Of a stretch of DNA of 64,000 nucleotides, positions 12,432 to 62,504 are shown piece after piece. The DNA comes from Escherichia phage FEC19, in sequence record MH816966; one strand, 5' to 3'. Position 1 is the stretch's first letter. Every line of letters starts with the position of its first letter. A model generated the notes under the pieces. It was not told the DNA's origin, did no database searches, and saw only the letters and a program-made list of their open reading frames with translations. A program made the translations under genes and the position numbers.

Positions 12432-12722
12432 TCAGCAAGGAAATTGGTCAGCGTATGCCTTTCTCAATTTGTTTACTGACTGAACAGAATGAAGGTATTG
12501 GCAATCGGTGAAGATGCGGCGCAAACAATCCATAGAAGACAGGTCATCGTTAGTAACCACCAGAATCTCTTCCGAAGGGCAACCAGCTTCTTTGGCAATC
12601 TCATTAAGATTTGAGCCATTAATTTCTTCAACACGTTTCACCTCATCGATACCGTAAACATCAACGGCAACTTCGATGTCGTCATCGCTGATATTCTCAC
12701 CATAAAGAATTACAATATTCAT
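12432..12722 (-). CDS. hypothetical early protein (acidic)
   Basis: 96-aa ORF. Confidence 0.5.
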   Translation of the reverse strand: MNIVILYGENISDDDIEVAVDVYGIDEVKRVEEINGSNLNEIAKEAGCPSEEILVVTNDDLSSMDCLRRIFTDCQYLHSVQSVNKLRKAYADQFPC

Positions 12723-12823
12723 TTACTCACCCCTGCCAAATAATGTGCCATATCCAATACATATAATAGCCCCAGGATGATAACAAGGGAAATGATTAAT
12801 GTGTATTTCTTTACGGCTTTCAT
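12719..12823 (-). CDS. small hydrophobic peptide (34 aa, one predicted TM), not in ORF track
   Basis: MKAVKKYTLIISLVIILGLLYVL...; stop overlaps next start. Confidence 0.3.
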   Translation of the reverse strand: MKAVKKYTLIISLVIILGLLYVLDMAHYLAGVSK

Positions 12824-27702: not shown

Positions 27703-27966
27703 ATGGTACGCATCCTTGAACGTTACAAAAATGAAGCTACTGGCGCAATCGCGTTCAAACGTCTTTTGGTCAAAGAAATTGACGGTATGTTCCGCGTTGT
27801 AAAAGAGTTTGATTATGGCAACGGTGCTGGGGTGAATACCGTAATTATGCCTGGCATCAAGGCATATAAGACTTTAAAAGGCGCTGAGAAGGCTTTGGCG
27901 GCTTGGAAACCTGAACGTTATCAAATGACCCGTGTTGAAGGGCTAATGCAAGAAGGTAAAATATGA
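27703..27966 (+). CDS. hypothetical protein
   Basis: 87-aa ORF with promoter-like TTGACT-18-ATAATT upstream. Confidence 0.45.
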   Translation: MVRILERYKNEATGAIAFKRLLVKEIDGMFRVVKEFDYGNGAGVNTVIMPGIKAYKTLKGAEKALAAWKPERYQMTRVEGLMQEGKI

Positions 27967-28520
27967 GCAATATTAATTGGGAAGATGATTTGCCGCAGGT
28001 TGCTCCTGAGAGCATTCAGGAGCGTCTTGCGCGCTTAGTATCTGAATTGGCAGAGCGCCAAGAAGCTTTGACAGAGCTTGAAGATGAAGCTGATATGCAA
28101 AAGCAGCGCATCAGTGAAATCAAAACTGTTCTGCTTCCTGGCGTTATGGATGAGCTTGGCGTGTCCGAAATCAAGCTTGAAGACAAGACCAAAATCAAGG
28201 TCGAGTCAAAAGTAAACGCTTCAATCAAGAAAGAAAATGAATTGAAGGTATTCGATTGGCTTGTCAACAATGGTTACGGCGGCTTGATCAAGTCCAGCGT
28301 CACGGCTGAGTTCGGTCGCGAAGAAATCGAGCAAGCGCAAGAGATTGTTGCCGCGCTGCGTGAAGATGGTGTTGAAGCCACGTTGAAACAAGGCGTTCAT
28401 TCTGCTACACTGAAGTCGTTTGTAAAAGAACAGCTGGAAGCGGGCAATCCAGTTAGTGAAGATATTAGCGTTTTTGAATACAAAGAAGCTAAAATAACCT
28501 TGCCTAAAAGCAAAAAGTAA
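27963..28520 (+). CDS. hypothetical acidic coiled-coil protein
   Basis: 185-aa ORF. Confidence 0.45.
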   Translation: MSNINWEDDLPQVAPESIQERLARLVSELAERQEALTELEDEADMQKQRISEIKTVLLPGVMDELGVSEIKLEDKTKIKVESKVNASIKKENELKVFDWLVNNGYGGLIKSSVTAEFGREEIEQAQEIVAALREDGVEATLKQGVHSATLKSFVKEQLEAGNPVSEDISVFEYKEAKITLPKSKK

Positions 28521-28579: not shown

Positions 28580-29440
28580 ATGTCTAAGAAAGAAACCACC
28601 GAAGTTGCAGTGAAAAACACCCAGATGTCCGCTATGGCTGATTTTGTCGACATGACCGATTTTGGCGCTGGTTTTGAAGGTGCCGATGCCGATGCGTATG
28701 CCATTCCTTTTATCGTCGTACTGCAGAAGATGTCTCCTATGGTCGACGAAGATGATCCAAAACACGTTCCTGGCGCAAAGGCTGGCATGCTTTACAACAC
28801 CGTTACTGGTGAGTTGTATGACGGCAAGAAAGGCGTGCAGATCATCCCTTGCGCATTCAAACGCACCTTCATTCTTTGGGGCGGTCGCGAGTCCGACGAT
28901 AAAGGCTTTAAAGGTGAATTCACCAAAGAGCACGTTGATGCAGAAGTCGCGGCAGGCCGCGCTGTTGAGATCAACGGTAAGGTATTCGTGCCGGACGAAA
29001 ACGGCAAGGTGCACGAGAAGAAATCTCCTTACTACGCAGATACACGCAACCACTTCGTAATTCTGTTGAACGAAGAAACTGGTGAATTTGGTAGCGCAAT
29101 GCTGTCTCTGACTTCTTCCATGATCAAGCCGTCTCGCATGCTGATGACCGCTCTGCAGCAGAAGAAAGTTCAGACTCCGCAGGGTCTGAAAACGCCGCCG
29201 ACCTTTATGAACATCGTTCGCATGGGTACTGCATCCCAGTCCAAAGACGGCAACACCTGGTCTGTTCTGAAGTTTGAGCTGGAAGGTCTGGTGCAGGACA
29301 AAGGCCTGTACGAAGTCGCCAAGGCATTCCACAACGACGTAGTGGGCGGTAACGTTAACATCGACCGCAGCAAGCAGGAAGAAGCAAGCGGTGCCGCTGG
29401 TCCTGTCAATGAAACTCCTACCGACGCAGAAGAGTTTTAA
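28580..29440 (+). CDS. putative single-stranded DNA-binding protein
   Basis: Acidic C-terminal tail ending ...TDAEEF, reminiscent of SSB tails; position in replication block. Confidence 0.35.
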   Translation: MSKKETTEVAVKNTQMSAMADFVDMTDFGAGFEGADADAYAIPFIVVLQKMSPMVDEDDPKHVPGAKAGMLYNTVTGELYDGKKGVQIIPCAFKRTFILWGGRESDDKGFKGEFTKEHVDAEVAAGRAVEINGKVFVPDENGKVHEKKSPYYADTRNHFVILLNEETGEFGSAMLSLTSSMIKPSRMLMTALQQKKVQTPQGLKTPPTFMNIVRMGTASQSKDGNTWSVLKFELEGLVQDKGLYEVAKAFHNDVVGGNVNIDRSKQEEASGAAGPVNETPTDAEEF

Positions 29441-29459
29441 TCGACAATCAAATCAACAA

Positions 29460-29485
29460 GGCTGCCGATTGGCGGCCTTTTATTT
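29460..29485 (+). terminator. intrinsic terminator
   Basis: ggctgcc gatt ggcggcc then ttttatttat. Confidence 0.55.
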
Positions 29486-29497
29486 ATCTGGTGCATC

Positions 29498-30016
29498 ATG
29501 ATAGAAAGAATTGTACCGCTCTTGAAGATTCTGGCCCTTGTTGGCGCGTTTGCCGCTGGATCATACGTTGAAGACCTGCAGCAAACCAACGCATCACTGG
29601 CCAAGGATAATCAATATCTGACATCGCTTAATGAGCGTAAGGACAAGATAAATGCACTCGAAGAGCAAATTGCATCTTTACAGGTTGAATCGGCATCGGC
29701 ATATGAGAAAGGTCGCCAGGAAGCGCAACTGGTTGCTGATGACACTATTGCTCGTTACAAGTCTGGGAATATCAAGTTGCGCGCGCAACTCAGCTGCTCC
29801 CGTGAGTTACTCAGGAGTATGCCCGACTCTGCGACCACTGGACGCCTCTCTATCCCAGAAGGAAACTGTGGACTATCAGAAGAAGATGTCAGTTTTCTTG
29901 TTCAGTTCGCCGCAGAAACAAATCGATTAAAAGAGAAAGTTAATAGCTTGATTGATACTTATAATCAGGCTAAAATAAAAATCGATCAATTCAATGCATC
30001 AAAGGAAAATAAATGA
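29498..30016 (+). CDS. Rz-like i-spanin, putative
   Basis: N-terminal TM segment, coiled-coil periplasmic region, NIKLRAQLSC resembling the Rz RRRLHIKAVC region. Confidence 0.45.
   Translation: MIERIVPLLKILALVGAFAAGSYVEDLQQTNASLAKDNQYLTSLNERKDKINALEEQIASLQVESASAYEKGRQEAQLVADDTIARYKSGNIKLRAQLSCSRELLRSMPDSATTGRLSIPEGNCGLSEEDVSFLVQFAAETNRLKEKVNSLIDTYNQAKIKIDQFNASKENK
29739..29930 (+). CDS. Rz1-like o-spanin embedded in +1 frame of the Rz-like gene, putative
   Basis: MTLLLVTSLGISSC lipobox-like signal then short Pro-containing mature part with second Cys. Confidence 0.4.
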   Translation: MTLLLVTSLGISSCARNSAAPVSYSGVCPTLRPLDASLSQKETVDYQKKMSVFLFSSPQKQID

Positions 30017-30636
30017 AACAGATTTATGCAAACATTCGCCAGTGGGCTTCTGACCGTAACATCATCCAAGGTTGCGACCTTAAGGACCAATACCCGAAGC
30101 TTATCAGCGAGTTCGGGGAGTTAACCGACCACGTTGATCAACTCCATGACCTTGTGTTCTTCGACCCTGAAATTGGATATACAGAGCAAGCCATCTGTGA
30201 CTTGCAGGCAGCAATTAAGGACGACATCGGCGATTGCCTTGTTGTGTTGACCATCCTGGCGGCGCAAAACGGTACTGAAATCGAAAACATTAATGGCGGC
30301 GGTTGTGCTGATAAAGGCGCTCACCCTCATTCATTCATCCTTCGCCTGGCAAAGACCCTTGGACGGCTTGGTGATGCTATTGCTAAGAATCAGACCATGG
30401 ATATTGACGTCACCATCATGGCCGCAGTCGATTACCTTTCCGGCGTAGCTCATGATTATGGCCTTCGCTTATCCGACTGTGCGCAAGCGGCCTACGAAGA
30501 CATCAAGGACCGCAAAGGTGTCATGTACAACGGAACGTTCATCAAATCTACTGATCCAGCTTATGAGCACTCCTGCAAAATGGTAAAGAAGCTGGAACTT
30601 GAAGACCGTGTGATCAGAGAAGTTACAGGACAATAA
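30013..30636 (+). CDS. mazG: MazG-like nucleotide pyrophosphohydrolase
   Basis: LISEFGELTDHV and DDIGDCLVVLTILA resemble MazG EExxE / metal-binding helices. Confidence 0.55.
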   Translation: MKQIYANIRQWASDRNIIQGCDLKDQYPKLISEFGELTDHVDQLHDLVFFDPEIGYTEQAICDLQAAIKDDIGDCLVVLTILAAQNGTEIENINGGGCADKGAHPHSFILRLAKTLGRLGDAIAKNQTMDIDVTIMAAVDYLSGVAHDYGLRLSDCAQAAYEDIKDRKGVMYNGTFIKSTDPAYEHSCKMVKKLELEDRVIREVTGQ

Positions 30637-30638
30637 TT

Positions 30639-31601
30639 ATGACAGCATTAAAACCAATGAAGGGTTGCCAACGTAAGCAGATTATCGAGCGCGGCGAGGA
30701 CGTGCCGCTGCCTTGCGGACTGTCATTCAAGGTCGATGGCATACGTGCAATGGCGTATGACAACTTGCCAATGGGCACTTCCGGCATGCCGTTGCGCAAC
30801 GTTCAAATCAAAAAAGAGTTCCTCTTTTTGGGTGAACTAATTCACGGACTTGATGGAGAGCTAATCGACGGCAATCCAAATGATAAGAACGTCATGCAAC
30901 AGGCCTATACTGCATGCATGAATACTGATGCAATCACTAACTTTACATGGTGGGTGTTTGATGACTTCAGCGACCCTGATCTGCCTTTTGAAAAGCGTTA
31001 TGCAAACTATCGAGCTAGAGTTGCTGAGGTCAATCAGCATCTCATCAACCATGGTCGACGCCCATTCCTTCGCGCTCTCGAATATCGAAACATCGAAAAT
31101 ATGGAACAGTACGCGGCGATGCAAATCGAAGCAGACCAGCTTGGATATGAAGGCTTGTATGGCAAGTCTTGGACGGGCAAATACAAGCATGGCCGCGCGA
31201 CGCCGAAGTCACGTGATGTGTGGAAGGACAAGCCGTGGACGGATGAAGAAGGATTGATCATAGACTTCGTTGAGATGATGGAGAACAACAACGAAGCATT
31301 CATTGACGAATTGGGTCGCACCAAGCGTTCAAAAGAGGCTGAAGGTTTAGTTGCAAAAGGATACCTTGGCTCATTCGTAGTCGTCAATCCGAAATATGTG
31401 GATGAGAAAGGTGAAATGATTCCTTTCCGCGTATCCGCTGGTTCAATGCCTATGGCAGAGAGAAAAATGCTTTGGGAGAATCGCGAGAACTATCGCGATA
31501 AATATCTAACGTATAAATTCTTTAACTTCGGCATTGTTGATGTGCCGCGCTCTGCTTTGTATAAATGCTTCCGTGATATTACCGATATGGAGTATTTTTA
31601 A
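30639..31601 (+). CDS. ATP-dependent DNA ligase
   Basis: Motif I FKVDGIRA (KxDG), DGELI, EGLYGK downstream. Confidence 0.7.
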   Translation: MTALKPMKGCQRKQIIERGEDVPLPCGLSFKVDGIRAMAYDNLPMGTSGMPLRNVQIKKEFLFLGELIHGLDGELIDGNPNDKNVMQQAYTACMNTDAITNFTWWVFDDFSDPDLPFEKRYANYRARVAEVNQHLINHGRRPFLRALEYRNIENMEQYAAMQIEADQLGYEGLYGKSWTGKYKHGRATPKSRDVWKDKPWTDEEGLIIDFVEMMENNNEAFIDELGRTKRSKEAEGLVAKGYLGSFVVVNPKYVDEKGEMIPFRVSAGSMPMAERKMLWENRENYRDKYLTYKFFNFGIVDVPRSALYKCFRDITDMEYF

Positions 31602-31676
31602 GACACTAGATAAATAATTGGTGCGGATAATCTATCGCGTTGTTTTATAGAATTTAATATACAGTGTATACATAAA

Positions 31677-31701
31677 GCCGGAAATCTCCGGCTTTTCTTT
31701 T
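31677..31701 (+). terminator. intrinsic terminator after ligase
   Basis: gccgga aatc tccggc then ttttctttt. Confidence 0.65.
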
Positions 31702-31777: not shown

Positions 31778-32320
31778 ATGAAATCGAAAACTTTAAAGAT
31801 TGTTTTGATCACCATCATGGCTATGCTGACAGTCTTGTTCTTCACCAAAAGTGCAGCGGCTGAAAGTATGTTTACGCCGCCAAATAGTAATGCCAAAGTG
31901 TTAACGAGATATTTTAACAACGGCCAATCGTTCGAATTTTGCTGGAACAAATATGATGTGATAAAGGAAAGGTTTGATAAGGAAAAGATGTGCGTAATGA
32001 ATGATCGCGGTCGCCAAGTCGTTTCGTTTGTGTTCGGAATGTCAATTGCAAAAGTTGATGCCGCTGAAATCGTTGTCAGGTATAATACATTGGACAGCGG
32101 CCTTGTCGACAAGACATACCCTGTTGCAGTAGACAGCAGGACAGGCGGCGCACTCATACTCACTCCAGAAGATAAATCAGATGTCGTTAACATGCTCATC
32201 AACAGCAAAGACGTAATCGTGTTTTATCATGTTGAAGGCGTATCAGACTACCAAATGGCCTACTATCCACTGCCCTTAAGAGATGCTTCAGGTAATGTTA
32301 AGACACAGGATGTGCGTTGA
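31778..32320 (+). CDS. secreted/periplasmic hypothetical protein (signal peptide)
   Basis: MKSKTLKIVLITIMAMLTVLFFTKSAAAE. Confidence 0.5.
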   Translation: MKSKTLKIVLITIMAMLTVLFFTKSAAAESMFTPPNSNAKVLTRYFNNGQSFEFCWNKYDVIKERFDKEKMCVMNDRGRQVVSFVFGMSIAKVDAAEIVVRYNTLDSGLVDKTYPVAVDSRTGGALILTPEDKSDVVNMLINSKDVIVFYHVEGVSDYQMAYYPLPLRDASGNVKTQDVR

Positions 32321-32547
32321 CATGGGTGGTAGTTATGCAGAAAGATTTGGAAGAAAACAAAAGGCTGAAAAAGGCTTTGACGTCTCAAATCTTGTCCCTG
32401 TTGGTAAAGCTTATTGGGGAGTCAATTAGCAACAAGGTGGCACGGGCCGCGATTGTTGGCGTGATTGGCATGGCGGGGTATTACTTCGACTTGCCAGACA
32501 TTGATACAAGTTCCGCGCCGCCAGTCCAGGTTGAAGCCGTGAAATAA
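32317..32547 (+). CDS. small membrane protein (one TM), possible holin or lysis/exclusion factor
   Basis: AAIVGVIGMAGYYF hydrophobic segment; adjacent to endolysin. Confidence 0.35.
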   Translation: MTWVVVMQKDLEENKRLKKALTSQILSLLVKLIGESISNKVARAAIVGVIGMAGYYFDLPDIDTSSAPPVQVEAVK

Positions 32548-32572: not shown

Positions 32573-33217
32573 TTACATAACTGCTAGTGCATCCTTGTAA
32601 CGCTTCCGTCGCAAATCCCCATGGTTAGCCGTATTCGGCGCGGCCCCGTTAATCCGCTTCACGGTCGAATCAAATGCACCCGCATCGGCAAGTGGAATGC
32701 AACCGCTGTTCTTGAAGAACCACGCTGCGCTGTCAGCGATGTATTTCGGCTCAGTCAAAATGTCAGGGTTATTCAAGGCGTCATACCCTGATTGCTTTGA
32801 ATACTCTGCATAGTTATCCTTTCCAGTCAGCTGAATGGCACCACGGCCACGGTACTTCCAACCGTCGCCAGATGCTACCGAACCATTTCCCATTCGGTTT
32901 GCATATGTATTATTGGCGATTTCCATTGGTTTACGGGCAATCGACAACGCCAAGGAGTTTGGTGCGCCACCGAAACGACCGCTGACGCTGTAACGGCTAG
33001 GCCACGTGTTGGCAAGACCCTGTGCAGAGTAGTTGAGATTTTCCACAAATGTTCTCAAGCTGCCTGTCTCTACTCCTACGTTTGCAAGGAATGCCGCGAT
33101 GGCATTCTTGCTTTTGATTCCGTAGTGCTCACAAGCCTGCTTGAAAGGGTCCACCCATTTCTCTGCGACATCCATGCTGCATCCGGTCCCTTTAGATATT
33201 ACGTTTGCATTAATCAT
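32573..33217 (-). CDS. endolysin, glycoside hydrolase family 19-like
   Basis: AIAAFLANVGVETGSL and GRGAIQLTG motifs typical of GH19 lysins. Confidence 0.75.
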   Translation of the reverse strand: MINANVISKGTGCSMDVAEKWVDPFKQACEHYGIKSKNAIAAFLANVGVETGSLRTFVENLNYSAQGLANTWPSRYSVSGRFGGAPNSLALSIARKPMEIANNTYANRMGNGSVASGDGWKYRGRGAIQLTGKDNYAEYSKQSGYDALNNPDILTEPKYIADSAAWFFKNSGCIPLADAGAFDSTVKRINGAAPNTANHGDLRRKRYKDALAVM

Positions 33218-54545: not shown

Positions 54546-54683
54546 TCAGTGAATATTAAAAAGCACTCCAGCAACTAAAACGCCAATCAGCATCGAGTCG
54601 TAAACAGCCCATTTCCAAGAAAGCAAAGAGTTGCAATTAATATTTCGCACTTTAACGTAACGTGACTGAATAATCTTTTGCAT
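54546..54683 (-). CDS. small membrane protein (45 aa, C-terminal TM), not in ORF track
   Basis: AAGAGGA RBS; MQKIIQSRYVKV...MLIGVLVAGVLFNIH. Confidence 0.35.
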   Translation of the reverse strand: MQKIIQSRYVKVRNINCNSLLSWKWAVYDSMLIGVLVAGVLFNIH

Positions 54684-61306: not shown

Positions 61307-61522
61307 ATGAAACTCATCGACCGTGCCATCAAAGCCATAGATAACCATTCCACAGCTATTGCATTTGTAATGGGATTCTGTTTTACTGCTGCGTTTGGCG
61401 ACGTTCACACATTCAAGTCTGTCATCTTGTGCTGGTCTATCTGGTCCCTCATTTCTCTGGTTTTGATTCTTCCGATGACGTGGCTTATCCTTACTTGTCT
61501 GGAATCTCAAGGTGAAGACTGA
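61307..61522 (+). CDS. small membrane protein (two hydrophobic segments), holin candidate
   Basis: 71 aa with two hydrophobic stretches. Confidence 0.4.
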   Translation: MKLIDRAIKAIDNHSTAIAFVMGFCFTAAFGDVHTFKSVILCWSIWSLISLVLILPMTWLILTCLESQGED

Positions 61523-62162: not shown

Positions 62163-62504
62163 ATGAACAACACTTTATCACAACTGCTAATCTGGACTAT
62201 CGCCGCTATCATCGGCACCGTCATTATGATGTCAAGCGCAAAGGCGCAAACTGATATTTGCGGCAGACTTATTTCTGAGAATGGCGAGATTTATTATGGC
62301 AACTCAAAAGGCGATTATATATCACCTGAAGTTTGCGCTCAGAAGAAGGCGGAAATGCAAAAGCAGTATCATGAAGATCAATCCATATCTCAGGCCGCGC
62401 TGATTGAATTAAGTATATCAGCCATCATCTTTCTGATCGTTTTTATGCTCATTATTAAACCAAATAATGACAGCAACCGTCATATTCCTCTCAAAAGAAA
62501 TTAA
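62163..62504 (+). CDS. membrane protein with N-terminal signal/TM and C-terminal TM
   Basis: AAAGAGG RBS 5 nt before ATG; hydrophobic segments at both ends. Confidence 0.4.
   Translation: MNNTLSQLLIWTIAAIIGTVIMMSSAKAQTDICGRLISENGEIYYGNSKGDYISPEVCAQKKAEMQKQYHEDQSISQAALIELSISAIIFLIVFMLIIKPNNDSNRHIPLKRN

What the first reader, a model, noticed from the sequence alone, without database searches (positions are those of the whole stretch)
29498..30016. Embedded Rz/Rz1-like spanin pair located in the replication block, far from the endolysin
The 172-aa protein has an N-terminal TM segment and coiled-coil body like i-spanins, and the +1 frame inside it encodes a lipobox-like peptide (LGISSC) followed by a short Pro-containing region, like embedded o-spanins. 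It sits between the SSB-like gene and MazG, ~2.5 kb from the GH19 endolysin on the opposite strand, and no holin is adjacent. Lysis genes appear dispersed; holin candidates are the small membrane proteins at 32317..32547, 61307..61522, 54546..54683 and 12719..12823.
Basis: partly seen in the sequence, partly recalled or inferred. Interest (0 to 1): 0.5.

Follow-up and report, generated by a model that had tools for sequence, protein, structure and literature searches.

The report
Embedded Rz/Rz1-type spanin gene pair
The window is an E. coli Wifcevirus phage, and the flagged locus is a real two-gene spanin that breaks the host outer membrane at lysis, but it was already catalogued in 2018 and is annotated in sister genomes, so it is ordinary.

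Summary

- **The genes.** 29498..30016 (+) encodes a 172-aa protein with an N-terminal transmembrane helix and a helix-linker-helix body. It matches PHROG 'Rz-like spanin' (E=1.4e-26). A profile of its homologues links to lambda Rz (52/60 hit Pfam PF03245; hhalign 94%). Its +1 frame holds a fully embedded outer-membrane lipoprotein gene (29652 or 29703..29930; lipobox ISS|C; 50-aa mature peptide with one further Cys).
- **Evidence that the embedded frame is coding.** It is kept in four diverged lineages whose i-spanins are only 52-66% identical. Third-codon-position divergence of the outer gene drops from 0.54 to 0.28 across the overlap (p=2e-9). Homologous embedded o-spanins occur in PY54, Mica and LIET2. 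In PY54 and Mica the pair sits in a holin-endolysin-spanin cassette.
- **Prior knowledge.** The window is 98.7% identical to phage vB_EcoM_WFC. The orthologous pair of ECML-117 is listed in Kongari et al. 2018. It is annotated as i-/o-spanin in phages Mansfield and Bas98-101.
- **Location.** Spanin genes unlinked to holin and endolysin are known from T4.
- **Holin.** It remains unidentified. The best candidates by topology are 61307..61522 and 62163..62504.

The parts
29498..30016 (+). i-spanin gene (172 aa): type-II inner-membrane protein with an N-terminal TMD (about residues 5-24, 29510..29569). The periplasmic body is helix (to residue 88), linker (89-127, with invariant Cys100 and Cys124) and helix (128-171).
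   Evidence: ORF. phrog_1327 'Rz-like spanin' E=1.4e-26. Hydropathy. AlphaFold mean pLDDT 88.4, helices 6-88 and 128-171. Invariant cysteines. Profile link to PF03245 and lambda Rz.
29652..29930 (+). o-spanin gene, long form (92 aa), in the +1 frame and fully embedded. This start is the one annotated in phages Mansfield and Bas99.
   Evidence: ATG 29652 and the AAGGA 8 nt upstream are kept in 5/5 diverged lineages, although the overlapping i-spanin residue varies N/H/Y/D.
29703..29930 (+). o-spanin gene, short form (75 aa): MRKVARKRNWLLMTLLLVTSLGISS|C, then a 50-aa mature lipoprotein. This start is the one used by Kongari et al. 2018 for ECML-117.
   Evidence: Purifying selection on this frame begins about here.
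29639..29643 (+). Shine-Dalgarno-like AAGGA, 8 nt upstream of ATG 29652, lying inside the i-spanin codons for R47-K48-D49.
   Evidence: Conserved in 5/5 lineages. Lys is always AAG, against a background AAG share of 0.33-0.55.
29769..29780 (+). Lipobox I-S-S-C. The Cys codon (29778..29780) is the predicted lipidation and signal peptidase II cleavage site. The +2 residue is Ala, not Asp, which predicts outer-membrane sorting.
   Evidence: Sequence. Rule-based test. Lipobox kept as ISSC, MSSC, ISGC or TSSC in all relatives.
29778..29927 (+). Mature o-spanin (50 aa): CARNSAAPVSYSGVCPTLRPLDASLSQKETVDYQKKMSVFLFSSPQKQID. It has one further invariant Cys (in GVCPTL). This is the most constrained part of the overlap.
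   Evidence: third-position divergence 0.12-0.13 at 29822-29860. Shared motif with the PY54, LIET2 and Mica o-spanins.
29458..29489 (+). Intrinsic terminator-like hairpin plus T-tract, 9 nt upstream of the i-spanin ATG.
   Evidence: 9-bp stem, 6 GC pairs. Annotated as a terminator in Mansfield. Hairpin conserved in the diverged lineages.
30013..30016 (+). ATGA overlap of the i-spanin stop codon with the MazG-like start codon, suggesting translational coupling.
   Evidence: The same overlap appears in the called genes of L007-L010.
31674..31695 (+). Terminator-like hairpin that closes the spanin-MazG-ligase unit.
   Evidence: Mansfield annotates a terminator at the equivalent place.
32573..33217 (-). 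GH19 endolysin with no N-terminal hydrophobic (SAR) segment. It is the peptidoglycan-degrading partner on which spanin action depends.
   Evidence: Pfam PF00182 E=2.3e-7 and phrog_181 E=1.9e-70. Sequence.

Best explanation
The locus is the two-component spanin of a Wifcevirus phage, in the lambda-like 'embedded' gene architecture.

**Shown here**
- The 172-aa product has the anatomy of an i-spanin: an N-terminal transmembrane helix, then two long helices separated by a Cys-containing linker.
- The +1 frame encodes a small protein with a lipoprotein signal (lipobox ISS|C) and no Asp at +2.
- Both frames are under purifying selection.
- Both proteins have homologues that form embedded spanin pairs in the lysis cassettes of other phages.

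**Inferred from established lambda Rz/Rz1 biology**
- The i-spanin is anchored in the inner membrane.
- The mature 50-aa lipoprotein is sorted by Lol to the inner leaflet of the outer membrane.
- The two bind through their C-terminal regions and form disulfide-linked homodimers through the conserved periplasmic cysteines.
- The resulting complex spans the periplasm but is held inactive inside the peptidoglycan meshwork.
- Once a holin releases the GH19 endolysin (32573..33217) and the wall is degraded, the complexes oligomerise and fuse the inner and outer membranes, completing lysis.

**Inferred about expression**
- The genes lie in a terminator-bounded unit with MazG and DNA ligase, and are translationally coupled to MazG.
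- They are probably made with replication-phase genes and stored harmlessly until the wall is removed, as with T4 pseT.3/pseT.2.
For: - **Family match.** phrog_1327 'Rz-like spanin' E=1.4e-26 over residues 6-160.
- **Wider homologues.** An HMM profile of the Wifcevirus i-spanins finds 226 proteins at E<=1e-3. Of 60 aligned members, 52 hit Pfam PF03245 (Rz lysis protein). hhalign against lambda Rz gives 94% probability, E=1e-7.
- **Structure.** AlphaFold mean pLDDT 88.4. Helix 6-88, linker 89-127 carrying invariant C100 and C124, helix 128-171.
- **Lipoprotein signal.** A PROSITE-type rule is met in the window and in all four diverged lineages, always with Cys at position 26, and with Ala or Val at +2. 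The same script recovers lambda Rz1 as a positive control.
- **Conservation of the embedded ORF.** It is kept in L007, L008, L009 and L010 (i-spanin 52-66% identical), with the start, the lipobox and the motif GVCPTL..L..SLS..ET.DYQ..MS..LF retained.
- **Dual-frame constraint.** Third-position divergence of the i-spanin frame is 0.277 in the overlap (75 codons) against 0.535 outside it (98 codons), Mann-Whitney p=2.3e-9. The third base is invariant in 34/75 codons inside against 15/98 outside, Fisher p=1.8e-5. Neighbouring genes show 0.53 and 0.59.
- **Simulation.** o-spanin identity between lineages is 0.59-0.83, against 0.27-0.33 expected from the i-spanin constraint alone.
- **Homologues in cassettes.** Yersinia PY54 (29.5% identity, E=6e-14) and Burkholderia Mica (31.6%) carry the gene in holin-endolysin-spanin cassettes. 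They hold homologous embedded lipoproteins, as does Pantoea LIET2.
- **Prior curation.** ECML-117 EIS/EOS in Kongari et al. 2018, PMC6139136. Also annotated in Mansfield and Bas98-101.
Against: - The window protein itself does not reach E<=0.01 against any Pfam model, and BLASTP against lambda Rz finds nothing. The link to Rz is by profile only.
- No holin is adjacent, and none is identifiable by sequence anywhere in the genome.
- The genes are 2.56 kb from the endolysin, on the other strand, behind a conserved terminator and among replication genes. Their expression class is unknown.
- No dedicated lipoprotein predictor (LipoP, SignalP) was available. From the SD-supported start at 29652 the signal peptide would be an unusually long 42 residues.
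- The mature o-spanin has only 8% proline, against 24% in lambda Rz1.
- No experiment exists for any member of this genus.
Confidence: 0.9

Rival explanations
1. The embedded +1 ORF is a chance open frame with a fortuitous lipobox. Only the 172-aa protein is made.
For: The +1 frame stays open in 13-54% of synonymous recodings of the i-spanin, so openness alone is weak evidence. A PROSITE-type lipobox rule also fires on about a dozen other, mostly spurious, ORFs in the six-frame window.
Against: The ORF, its start, the lipobox and a 25-residue mature motif are conserved in four lineages at 52-66% i-spanin identity. Silent variation of the outer gene is halved exactly over the overlap (p=2.3e-9). 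Homologous embedded peptides occur in PY54, LIET2 and Mica.
Confidence: 0.02
2. The pair is a periplasm-spanning envelope complex with a non-lysis role suited to its early or middle genomic position. One possibility is superinfection exclusion, as with Cor/Llp-type lipoproteins or T4 Imm/Sp. Another is envelope remodelling.
For: The location is among replication genes, behind a terminator and coupled to MazG, away from the endolysin. No experiment has been done for this genus. Small phage outer-membrane lipoproteins with exclusion functions exist (my own knowledge, not tested here).
Against: Both partners are homologous to spanin pairs that sit as the last genes of canonical holin-endolysin-spanin cassettes. 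The i-spanin family overlaps Pfam Rz. The genome has no other spanin candidate, neither a u-spanin-type ORF nor a homologue of the Pbunavirus u-spanin. Unlinked spanin genes are known from T4 (PMC6139136).
Confidence: 0.05
3. Only the i-spanin-like protein acts in lysis, working with a different outer-membrane partner or alone. The embedded lipoprotein would then be a relic.
For: The i-spanin and o-spanin are each listed as 'singleton' families in Kongari et al. 2018.
Against: The strongest dual-frame constraint falls on the mature o-spanin region, where third-position divergence is 0.12-0.13. The lipidated Cys and the second Cys are invariant. A relic would decay.
Confidence: 0.02

Closest known systems
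ECML-117 embedded i-spanin/o-spanin (EIS/EOS) in Kongari et al. 2018 (PMC6139136); the same genes are annotated in phage Mansfield (CPT_Mansfield_057/058) and Bas98-101
   Same: This is the orthologue. The i-spanin is 98.3% identical, with the same 172-aa and 75-aa products, the same lipobox (GISS|C) and cysteine counts, the same embedded architecture and the same genomic position.
   Different: Only a few substitutions: window E96A, V107M and R132S in the i-spanin, and S28R and D63V in the o-spanin. Published annotations disagree on the o-spanin start: 75 aa in Kongari, 92 aa in Mansfield and Bas99. My comparison shows that both ATGs are conserved and that only the upstream one has an SD.
Lambda Rz/Rz1
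   Same: An embedded +1-frame outer-membrane lipoprotein gene lies inside a gene for a type-II inner-membrane protein. That protein has an N-terminal TMD, two helical segments and periplasmic cysteines. The mature lipoprotein has one extra Cys. Profile-level homology of the i-spanin gives hhalign 94%, E=1e-7.
   Different: There is no pairwise similarity and no direct Pfam PF03245 hit. The o-spanin is longer (50 against 41 aa in the mature form) and much less proline-rich (4 against 10 Pro). The genes are not the last genes of an S-R-Rz cassette. They sit between a Pam3_Gp34-family gene and MazG.
Yersinia phage PY54 ORF63, Burkholderia phage Mica i-/o-spanin and Pantoea phage LIET2 gp065
   Same: These are the nearest spanins outside the Wifcevirus clade (27-47% identity, E=2e-5 to 6e-14). 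All carry an embedded o-spanin sharing the motif CP..PP.D..L..ETADYQ..MS.FLF with the window.
   Different: In PY54 and Mica the pair directly follows the holin and endolysin. In LIET2 it lies among small genes of unknown function. In the window it lies in the replication block.
T4 pseT.3/pseT.2 spanin
   Same: A two-component spanin whose genes are unlinked to the holin (t) and endolysin (e) genes (PMC6139136, Fig. 8 legend).
   Different: T4 has the 'separated' architecture rather than the embedded one. No sequence relationship was tested or expected.
PB1-type unimolecular spanin (AWAC lipobox) of Pbunavirus, the sister group of Wifcevirus
   Same: It performs the same lysis step in the nearest related phage group. 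Those lysis genes are also dispersed: a holin-like gp34, DUF2786 gp35 and the AWAC u-spanin gp36 of Epa13 sit near the terminase gene, far from the endolysin.
   Different: It is a single polypeptide with a lipobox and a C-terminal TMD. It has no homologue in the window or in the complete Wifcevirus genome Bas99. In Pbunavirus and Serratia MTx the slot that holds the spanin pair here is filled by an unrelated 201-aa membrane and coiled-coil protein, phrog_1544.

Membership tests
Two-component spanin (Rz/Rz1 type), embedded architecture | The i-spanin is an integral inner-membrane protein with a single N-terminal TMD (type II, N-in/C-out). | tested here: met
   Residues 1-19 have a Kyte-Doolittle mean of 1.75, and there is no other hydrophobic segment. 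The segment lies in AlphaFold helix 6-88. Kongari's table gives a 24-aa N-terminal part and a 148-aa periplasmic domain for the orthologue. Topology itself was not tested.
Two-component spanin (Rz/Rz1 type), embedded architecture | The i-spanin periplasmic domain is mostly alpha-helical or coiled-coil, in two segments joined by a linker. | tested here: met
   AlphaFold with a 60-sequence alignment gives mean pLDDT 88.4: helix to residue 88, non-helical 89-127, helix 128-171. Kongari's supplement lists 62.8% helix and one coiled-coil region for ECML-117.
Two-component spanin (Rz/Rz1 type), embedded architecture | The o-spanin is a small outer-membrane lipoprotein: a signal peptidase II signal with a lipobox and Cys, and no inner-membrane retention residue (Asp) at +2. 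| tested here: met
   A PROSITE PS51257-type rule is met (Cys26, basic n-region, 14-residue h-region, ISS|C, +2 Ala) in the window and in four diverged lineages. Lambda Rz1 passes as a control. LipoP and SignalP could not be run. The orthologue is in Kongari's curated o-spanin set, which that paper screened for a LipoP lipoprotein signal.
Two-component spanin (Rz/Rz1 type), embedded architecture | The o-spanin gene lies entirely within the i-spanin gene in the +1 frame, and both frames are functional. | tested here: met
   Coordinates are 29652 or 29703..29930 inside 29498..30016. Dual-frame purifying selection is shown by third-position divergence of 0.277 against 0.535, p=2.3e-9, and by o-spanin identity far above the recoding null.
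Two-component spanin (Rz/Rz1 type), embedded architecture | Periplasmic cysteines are available for homotypic intermolecular disulfides (near-universal in two-component spanins, per Kongari 2018). | tested here: met
   i-spanin C100 and C124 are invariant in six sequences. The mature o-spanin has one invariant non-lipidated Cys in GVCPTL. Disulfide formation itself is not testable here.
Two-component spanin (Rz/Rz1 type), embedded architecture | Sequence homology of the i-spanin to Rz (Pfam PF03245 Phage_lysis). | tested here: inconclusive
   Directly there is no Pfam hit at E<=0.01 and no BLASTP similarity to lambda Rz. Indirectly, phrog_1327 'Rz-like spanin' gives E=1.4e-26, 52/60 profile-found homologues hit PF03245, and hhalign to lambda Rz gives 94%, E=1e-7. 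Homology is likely, but the protein lies outside the Pfam model's own threshold.
Two-component spanin (Rz/Rz1 type), embedded architecture | Linkage to the holin and endolysin in a lysis cassette (typical, but not defining; T4 is the known exception). | tested here: not met
   The endolysin is 2.56 kb away on the opposite strand, and no holin is adjacent. More distant homologues in PY54 and Mica are cassette-linked.
Two-component spanin (Rz/Rz1 type), embedded architecture | Function: required for outer-membrane disruption, complements lambda RzRz1, and the i- and o-subunits bind through their C-termini. | not testable with these tools
   No experimental data for any Wifcevirus spanin were found in the literature searched.
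Unimolecular spanin (T1 gp11 / PB1 type) | [quoted passage not shown] | tested here: not met
   The embedded lipoprotein has no C-terminal hydrophobic segment. No ORF in the window combines a lipobox with a C-terminal TMD. The Pbunavirus AWAC u-spanin (Epa13 gp36) has no tblastn match in the window or in Bas99 at E<=1.

The most novel reading that the evidence does not exclude
The evidence does not exclude several linked readings.

- **A deliberate timing arrangement.** The Wifcevirus spanin lies in a terminator-bounded replication-phase unit and is translationally coupled to MazG. If it is made early, the envelope would be pre-loaded with spanin complexes. That could contribute to the unusually short infection cycle reported for this genus (3-5 min, as cited in PMC11990801).
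- **In-situ gene displacement.** The pair may have displaced an unrelated membrane and coiled-coil protein (phrog_1544) that holds the same slot in Pbunavirus and Myosmarvirus. Those relatives use a u-spanin encoded elsewhere.
- **Two starts for the o-spanin.** It may be translated from two conserved in-frame starts, 29652 (with an SD) and 29703. The precursors would differ by a basic 17-residue extension. This would be formally reminiscent of dual-start lysis regulators.
Probability: 0.12. Interest if true: 0.4.

Novelty: already known. Interest (0 to 1): 0.15.

Why it matters
There is little new biology in this finding. The pair was catalogued for the sister phage ECML-117 in 2018 and is annotated in several GenBank records. 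Spanins unlinked to the lysis cassette are textbook from T4.

The practical value is for annotation:
- About half of the 27 Wifcevirus records found still call the i-spanin gene 'hypothetical' (only six annotate the o-spanin gene). These genes can now be labelled with confidence.
- The two published o-spanin start coordinates can be reconciled.
- It is clear that the holin, not the spanin, is the missing piece of the Wifcevirus lysis system. These phages are of interest for O157 biocontrol and for their very fast lysis.

Tried and rejected
- **Direct Pfam assignment.** No hit for either protein. PHROGs has no family for the o-spanin.
- **BLASTP against lambda Rz.** Nothing. Only profile methods connect the two.
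- **IMG/VR scan with the i-spanin.** It returned only near-identical phages plus one weak 31% hit, L006, whose lipoprotein gene is overlapped or separated rather than embedded. The diverged lineages came instead from the protein database and Logan contigs.
- **phrog_1544 as a GTA_holin_3TM-type holin.** I guessed from memory that this slot protein of Pbunavirus and MTx might belong to that family. Pfam gave no such hit at E<=0.01, so I do not claim it.
- **Holin by homology.** The PY54 and Mica holins and the Pbunavirus holin-like gp34 have no tblastn match in the window or in Bas99.
- **PDB sequence search.** Searches with the i-spanin profile and with the upstream Pam3_Gp34-like protein found nothing meaningful.
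- **Sigma-70 promoter scan.** It found no more sites than shuffled sequence gives (10 against 8.3 expected) and none between the terminator and the spanin start. The promoter serving the unit is unknown.
- **Announcement paper for phage Mansfield.** It says nothing about lysis genes.
- **Not attempted.** I did not run a fold search on the helical-hairpin model, because such matches are uninformative.
Full report
**What the window is.** A 3.2-kb stretch around the finding is 98.7% identical to Escherichia phage vB_EcoM_WFC. It is 92-98% identical to 26 other records, all E. coli or Shigella myoviruses of the genus Wifcevirus, which are PB1-like. Gene order here is:
- SNF2 helicase;
- DUF7307 (Pam3 gp33-like), 27963..28520;
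- Pam3_Gp34-family protein, 28580..29440;
- the flagged ORF;
- MazG-like pyrophosphatase, 30013..30636;
- ATP-dependent DNA ligase, 30639..31601;
- a 180-aa secreted protein;
- a 76-aa phrog_5165 protein;
- then, convergently, the GH19 endolysin (32573..33217, minus strand) at the end of the tail-fibre operon.

**Check of the observation.** All elements are present at the stated coordinates.
- The ORF 29498..30016 encodes 172 aa with a hydrophobic N-terminus.
- The +1 frame contains an ORF 29652..29930 carrying ...LLMTLLLVTSLGISSC....
- From the internal ATG at 29703 the product is MRKVARKRNWLLMTLLLVTSLGISS|CARNS... .
- That form satisfies a PROSITE PS51257-type lipoprotein rule: five basic residues in the n-region, a 14-residue h-region, lipobox ISSC, Cys at position 26, and Ala at +2, which predicts outer-membrane sorting.
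- The same script recovers lambda Rz1 as a positive control.
- Two details need correcting. The upstream gene has no support as an SSB; it is Pfam Pam3_Gp34 / phrog_2402 of unknown function, with no PDB relative. The mature lipoprotein has only 4 prolines in 50 residues.

**Is the embedded frame really coding?** Openness alone is weak evidence, because 13-54% of synonymous recodings of the i-spanin keep the +1 frame open. The decisive evidence is comparative.
- A protein search found four diverged lineages in metagenome assemblies, with i-spanins 52-66% identical. All have the same gene neighbourhood.
- In all of them the +1 frame keeps a basic start (MRK or MKK), a lipobox (ISSC, ISGC or TSSC), Cys at position 26, a second invariant Cys, and the mature motif GVCPTL..L..SLS..ET.DYQ..MS..LF.
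- Between lineages the o-spanin is 59-83% identical. The i-spanin constraint alone would give 27-33%, with a maximum of 49% in 2000 simulations.
- The simulation ignores shared ancestry, so the better control is internal. Third-codon-position divergence of the i-spanin frame is 0.277 over the 75 overlapped codons and 0.535 over the 98 non-overlapped ones (Mann-Whitney p=2.3e-9).
- The third base is invariant in 34/75 overlapped codons against 15/98 non-overlapped ones (Fisher p=1.8e-5).
- The neighbouring genes show 0.53 and 0.59.
- The trough (0.12-0.13) lies over the mature o-spanin at about 29822-29860. The signal-peptide part is less constrained, as expected.

**What the outer protein is.**
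- It matches phrog_1327 'Rz-like spanin' (E=1.4e-26) but no Pfam model.
- An HMM built from the Wifcevirus-clade sequences finds 226 proteins at E<=1e-3 in 1.8 billion representatives.
- Of 60 aligned members, 52 hit Pfam PF03245 (bacteriophage Rz lysis protein) and 23 hit DUF2514.
- Profile comparison with lambda Rz gives 94% probability, E=1e-7. Pairwise BLASTP finds nothing.
- AlphaFold on that alignment gives a confident model (mean pLDDT 88.4). It has one long helix from residue 6 to 88 (TMD plus first periplasmic helix), a non-helical linker at 89-127 carrying the two invariant cysteines C100 and C124, and a second helix at 128-171. This is the Rz layout.

**Independent support from other phages.**
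- tblastn finds more distant homologues annotated as spanins in Yersinia phage PY54 (29.5%, E=6e-14), Burkholderia phage Mica (31.6%) and Pantoea phage LIET2 (46.5% over the C-terminal 71 residues).
- In PY54 and Mica the gene is the last member of a holin-endolysin-spanin cassette.
- All three carry an embedded +1-frame lipoprotein. Its mature part aligns with the window's o-spanin through the motif CP..PP.D..L..ETADYQ..MS.FLF.
- Both partners therefore belong to a wider spanin lineage that elsewhere sits in canonical cassettes.

**It is already known.**
- Kongari et al. 2018 (PMC6139136) list Wifcevirus ECML-117 among phages with an embedded two-component spanin.
- Their supplement gives the 172-aa i-spanin (148-aa periplasmic domain, 2 Cys) and a 75-aa o-spanin (signal MRRVARKRNWLLMTLLLVTSLGISS, mature 50 aa). 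[quoted passage not shown]
- Phage Mansfield (CPT annotation) and the BASEL phages Bas98-101 annotate the i-spanin and o-spanin at the orthologous coordinates.
- About half of the other records still call the i-spanin gene hypothetical.
- The same paper notes that the T4 spanin genes are not near its holin and endolysin, so the dispersal is not new either.

**Fine points added here.**
1. *Start codon.* Kongari used ATG 29703 (75 aa). Mansfield and Bas99 use ATG 29652 (92 aa).
   - Both ATGs are present in 5/5 diverged lineages.
   - The upstream ATG is kept even though the overlapping i-spanin residue varies (N, H, Y, D, N). That residue is always a NAT codon followed by a G-initial codon.
   - The upstream ATG is preceded at 8 nt by AAGGA in all five lineages. 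Lys is always AAG, against a background share of 0.33-0.55.
   - ATG 29703 has no SD within range.
   - The 17 intervening codons are not constrained in the +1 frame; third-position divergence there is 0.53.
   - Initiation at 29652 is therefore likely. It would give a long, basic and sequence-tolerant n-region. The mature product is the same from either start.
2. *Transcription context.*
   - A conserved intrinsic-terminator hairpin (29458..29479 plus T-tract) ends 9 nt before the i-spanin ATG (annotated in Mansfield).
   - The i-spanin stop overlaps the MazG start (ATGA).
   - A second terminator (31674..31695) follows the ligase gene.
   - No sigma-70-like promoter stands out.
   - The spanin is thus in one unit with MazG and ligase, probably fed by read-through or by an unrecognised promoter.
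3. *Comparative genomics.*
   - In Pbunavirus (Ab27) and Serratia phage MTx, the slot between the Pam3_Gp34-like gene and MazG holds an unrelated 201-aa protein. It has a Gly-rich N-terminus, a coiled coil and two C-terminal TMDs (phrog_1544, function unknown). It has no counterpart in the window.
   - Pbunaviruses use a unimolecular spanin with the AWAC lipobox.
   - I located it in Epa13 as gp36, next to DUF2786 gp35 and a three-TMD holin-like gp34, near the terminase gene.
   - None of these has a homologue in the window or in the complete Bas99 genome.
   - The two sister groups therefore solve outer-membrane disruption with non-homologous genes at different loci.

**The holin question.**
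- No holin is annotated in Bas99. The announcement paper for Mansfield does not mention lysis genes.
- The endolysin lacks a hydrophobic N-terminus, so a holin that permeabilises the membrane to it is expected (inference).
- 12719..12823 (34 aa) and 54546..54683 (45 aa) are single-TMD peptides, shorter than typical holins.
- 32317..32547 is a conserved phrog_5165 protein. It sits next to the endolysin in Wifcevirus, Pbunavirus and MTx. Its hydrophobic stretch is short and weak, and it was not called at a Kyte-Doolittle threshold of 1.6.
- Across the annotated Bas99 proteome, the only non-spanin proteins of at least 60 aa with two TMDs correspond to window 61307..61522 (71 aa) and 62163..62504 (113 aa, with N- and C-terminal TMDs). 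Both are co-oriented with the second tail-fibre gene.
- These two are the best topological candidates. They remain untested.

**Mechanism, with status of each step.**
- *Shown:* gene structure, dual-frame selection, the signal and TMD features, the helical architecture, the conserved cysteines, and homology to cassette-borne spanins.
- *Inferred from the lambda Rz/Rz1 paradigm (established knowledge, not tested here):*
  - the i-spanin inserts in the inner membrane;
  - the o-spanin is lipidated, cleaved by signal peptidase II and sorted to the outer membrane;
  - the two form a disulfide-stabilised complex across the periplasm;
  - the complex is restrained by the peptidoglycan and, after endolysin action, fuses the two membranes.
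- *Inferred:* co-expression with replication genes is harmless, because spanins are inert until the wall is degraded.

**Verdict.** The feature is already known, so interest is low. What remains open is the expression class of the unit, the true o-spanin start, and above all the identity of the holin.

Noticed in passing
window 29458..29489, 30013..30016 and 31674..31695: The spanin-MazG-ligase unit is bracketed by two terminator-like hairpins. The upstream hairpin ends 9 nt before the i-spanin ATG and is conserved in four diverged lineages. The i-spanin stop overlaps the MazG start (ATGA). No promoter was recognisable.
   Followed up: partly
window 29639..29654 versus 29703: Published annotations disagree on the o-spanin start (75 aa against 92 aa). 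ATG 29652 and an AAGGA 8 nt upstream are kept in 5/5 lineages despite amino-acid turnover in the overlapping frame. ATG 29703 is also kept but has no SD. The 17 codons between them are not constrained.
   Followed up: yes
L017 5792..6397 (Pseudomonas phage Ab27 ORF69); L018 5940..6545 (Serratia phage MTx gp064): In PB1-like relatives, the slot that holds the spanin pair here is occupied by an unrelated 201-aa protein (phrog_1544, unknown function). It has a Gly-rich N-terminus, a coiled coil and two C-terminal TMDs. It has no homologue in the window. It may be a lysis or membrane protein.
   Followed up: partly
L019 23568..25275 (Pseudomonas phage Epa13 gp34-gp36): A three-TMD holin-like protein, a DUF2786 protein and the AWAC-lipobox u-spanin (lipobox plus C-terminal TMD) cluster near the terminase gene, far from the endolysin. 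RefSeq calls all three hypothetical. None has a homologue in the Wifcevirus window or in Bas99.
   Followed up: partly
L007 11078..11530 and L008 11065..11520 (minus strand): Two diverged Wifcevirus-like lineages carry a 150-aa phrog_90-type lysozyme in the endolysin slot instead of the GH19 enzyme. The spanin pair and all neighbouring genes are retained. This looks like an endolysin swap at a fixed position.
   Followed up: partly
window 32317..32547 (more likely from ATG 32335): A small phrog_5165 protein lies immediately next to the endolysin in convergent orientation. It is conserved in Wifcevirus, Pbunavirus (Ab27 ORF66) and Myosmarvirus (MTx gp058). It has a basic N-terminus, an amphipathic and Gly/Ala-rich weakly hydrophobic core, and an acidic, Pro-rich tail. 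Its function is unknown and a lysis role is not excluded.
   Followed up: partly
window 61307..61522 and 62163..62504: These are the only non-spanin proteins of at least 60 aa with two predicted TMDs in the Wifcevirus proteome (71 aa, and 113 aa with N- and C-terminal TMDs and a basic tail). Both are co-oriented with the second tail-fibre gene. They are the best holin or antiholin candidates by topology. Neither has a family match.
   Followed up: partly
window 31778..32320: A 180-aa protein with a clear N-terminal signal or anchor (MKSKTLKIVLITIMAMLTVLFFTKSAAAE) lies between the ligase and endolysin genes. It is conserved in all diverged lineages, and a similar-sized signal-bearing protein sits at the same place in MTx (gp059). 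It has no Pfam or PHROG match.
   Followed up: no
window 27963..28520 (DUF7307, Pam3 gp33-like): A paper on Pbunavirus JJ01 (PMC9583000) labels a 621-nt gene at the position of the Pbunavirus DUF7307 gene (Ab27 ORF71) as 'U-spanin'. The DUF7307 proteins of the window, Ab27 and MTx have no signal peptide, lipobox or TMD. That label is probably an annotation error that has propagated.
   Followed up: partly
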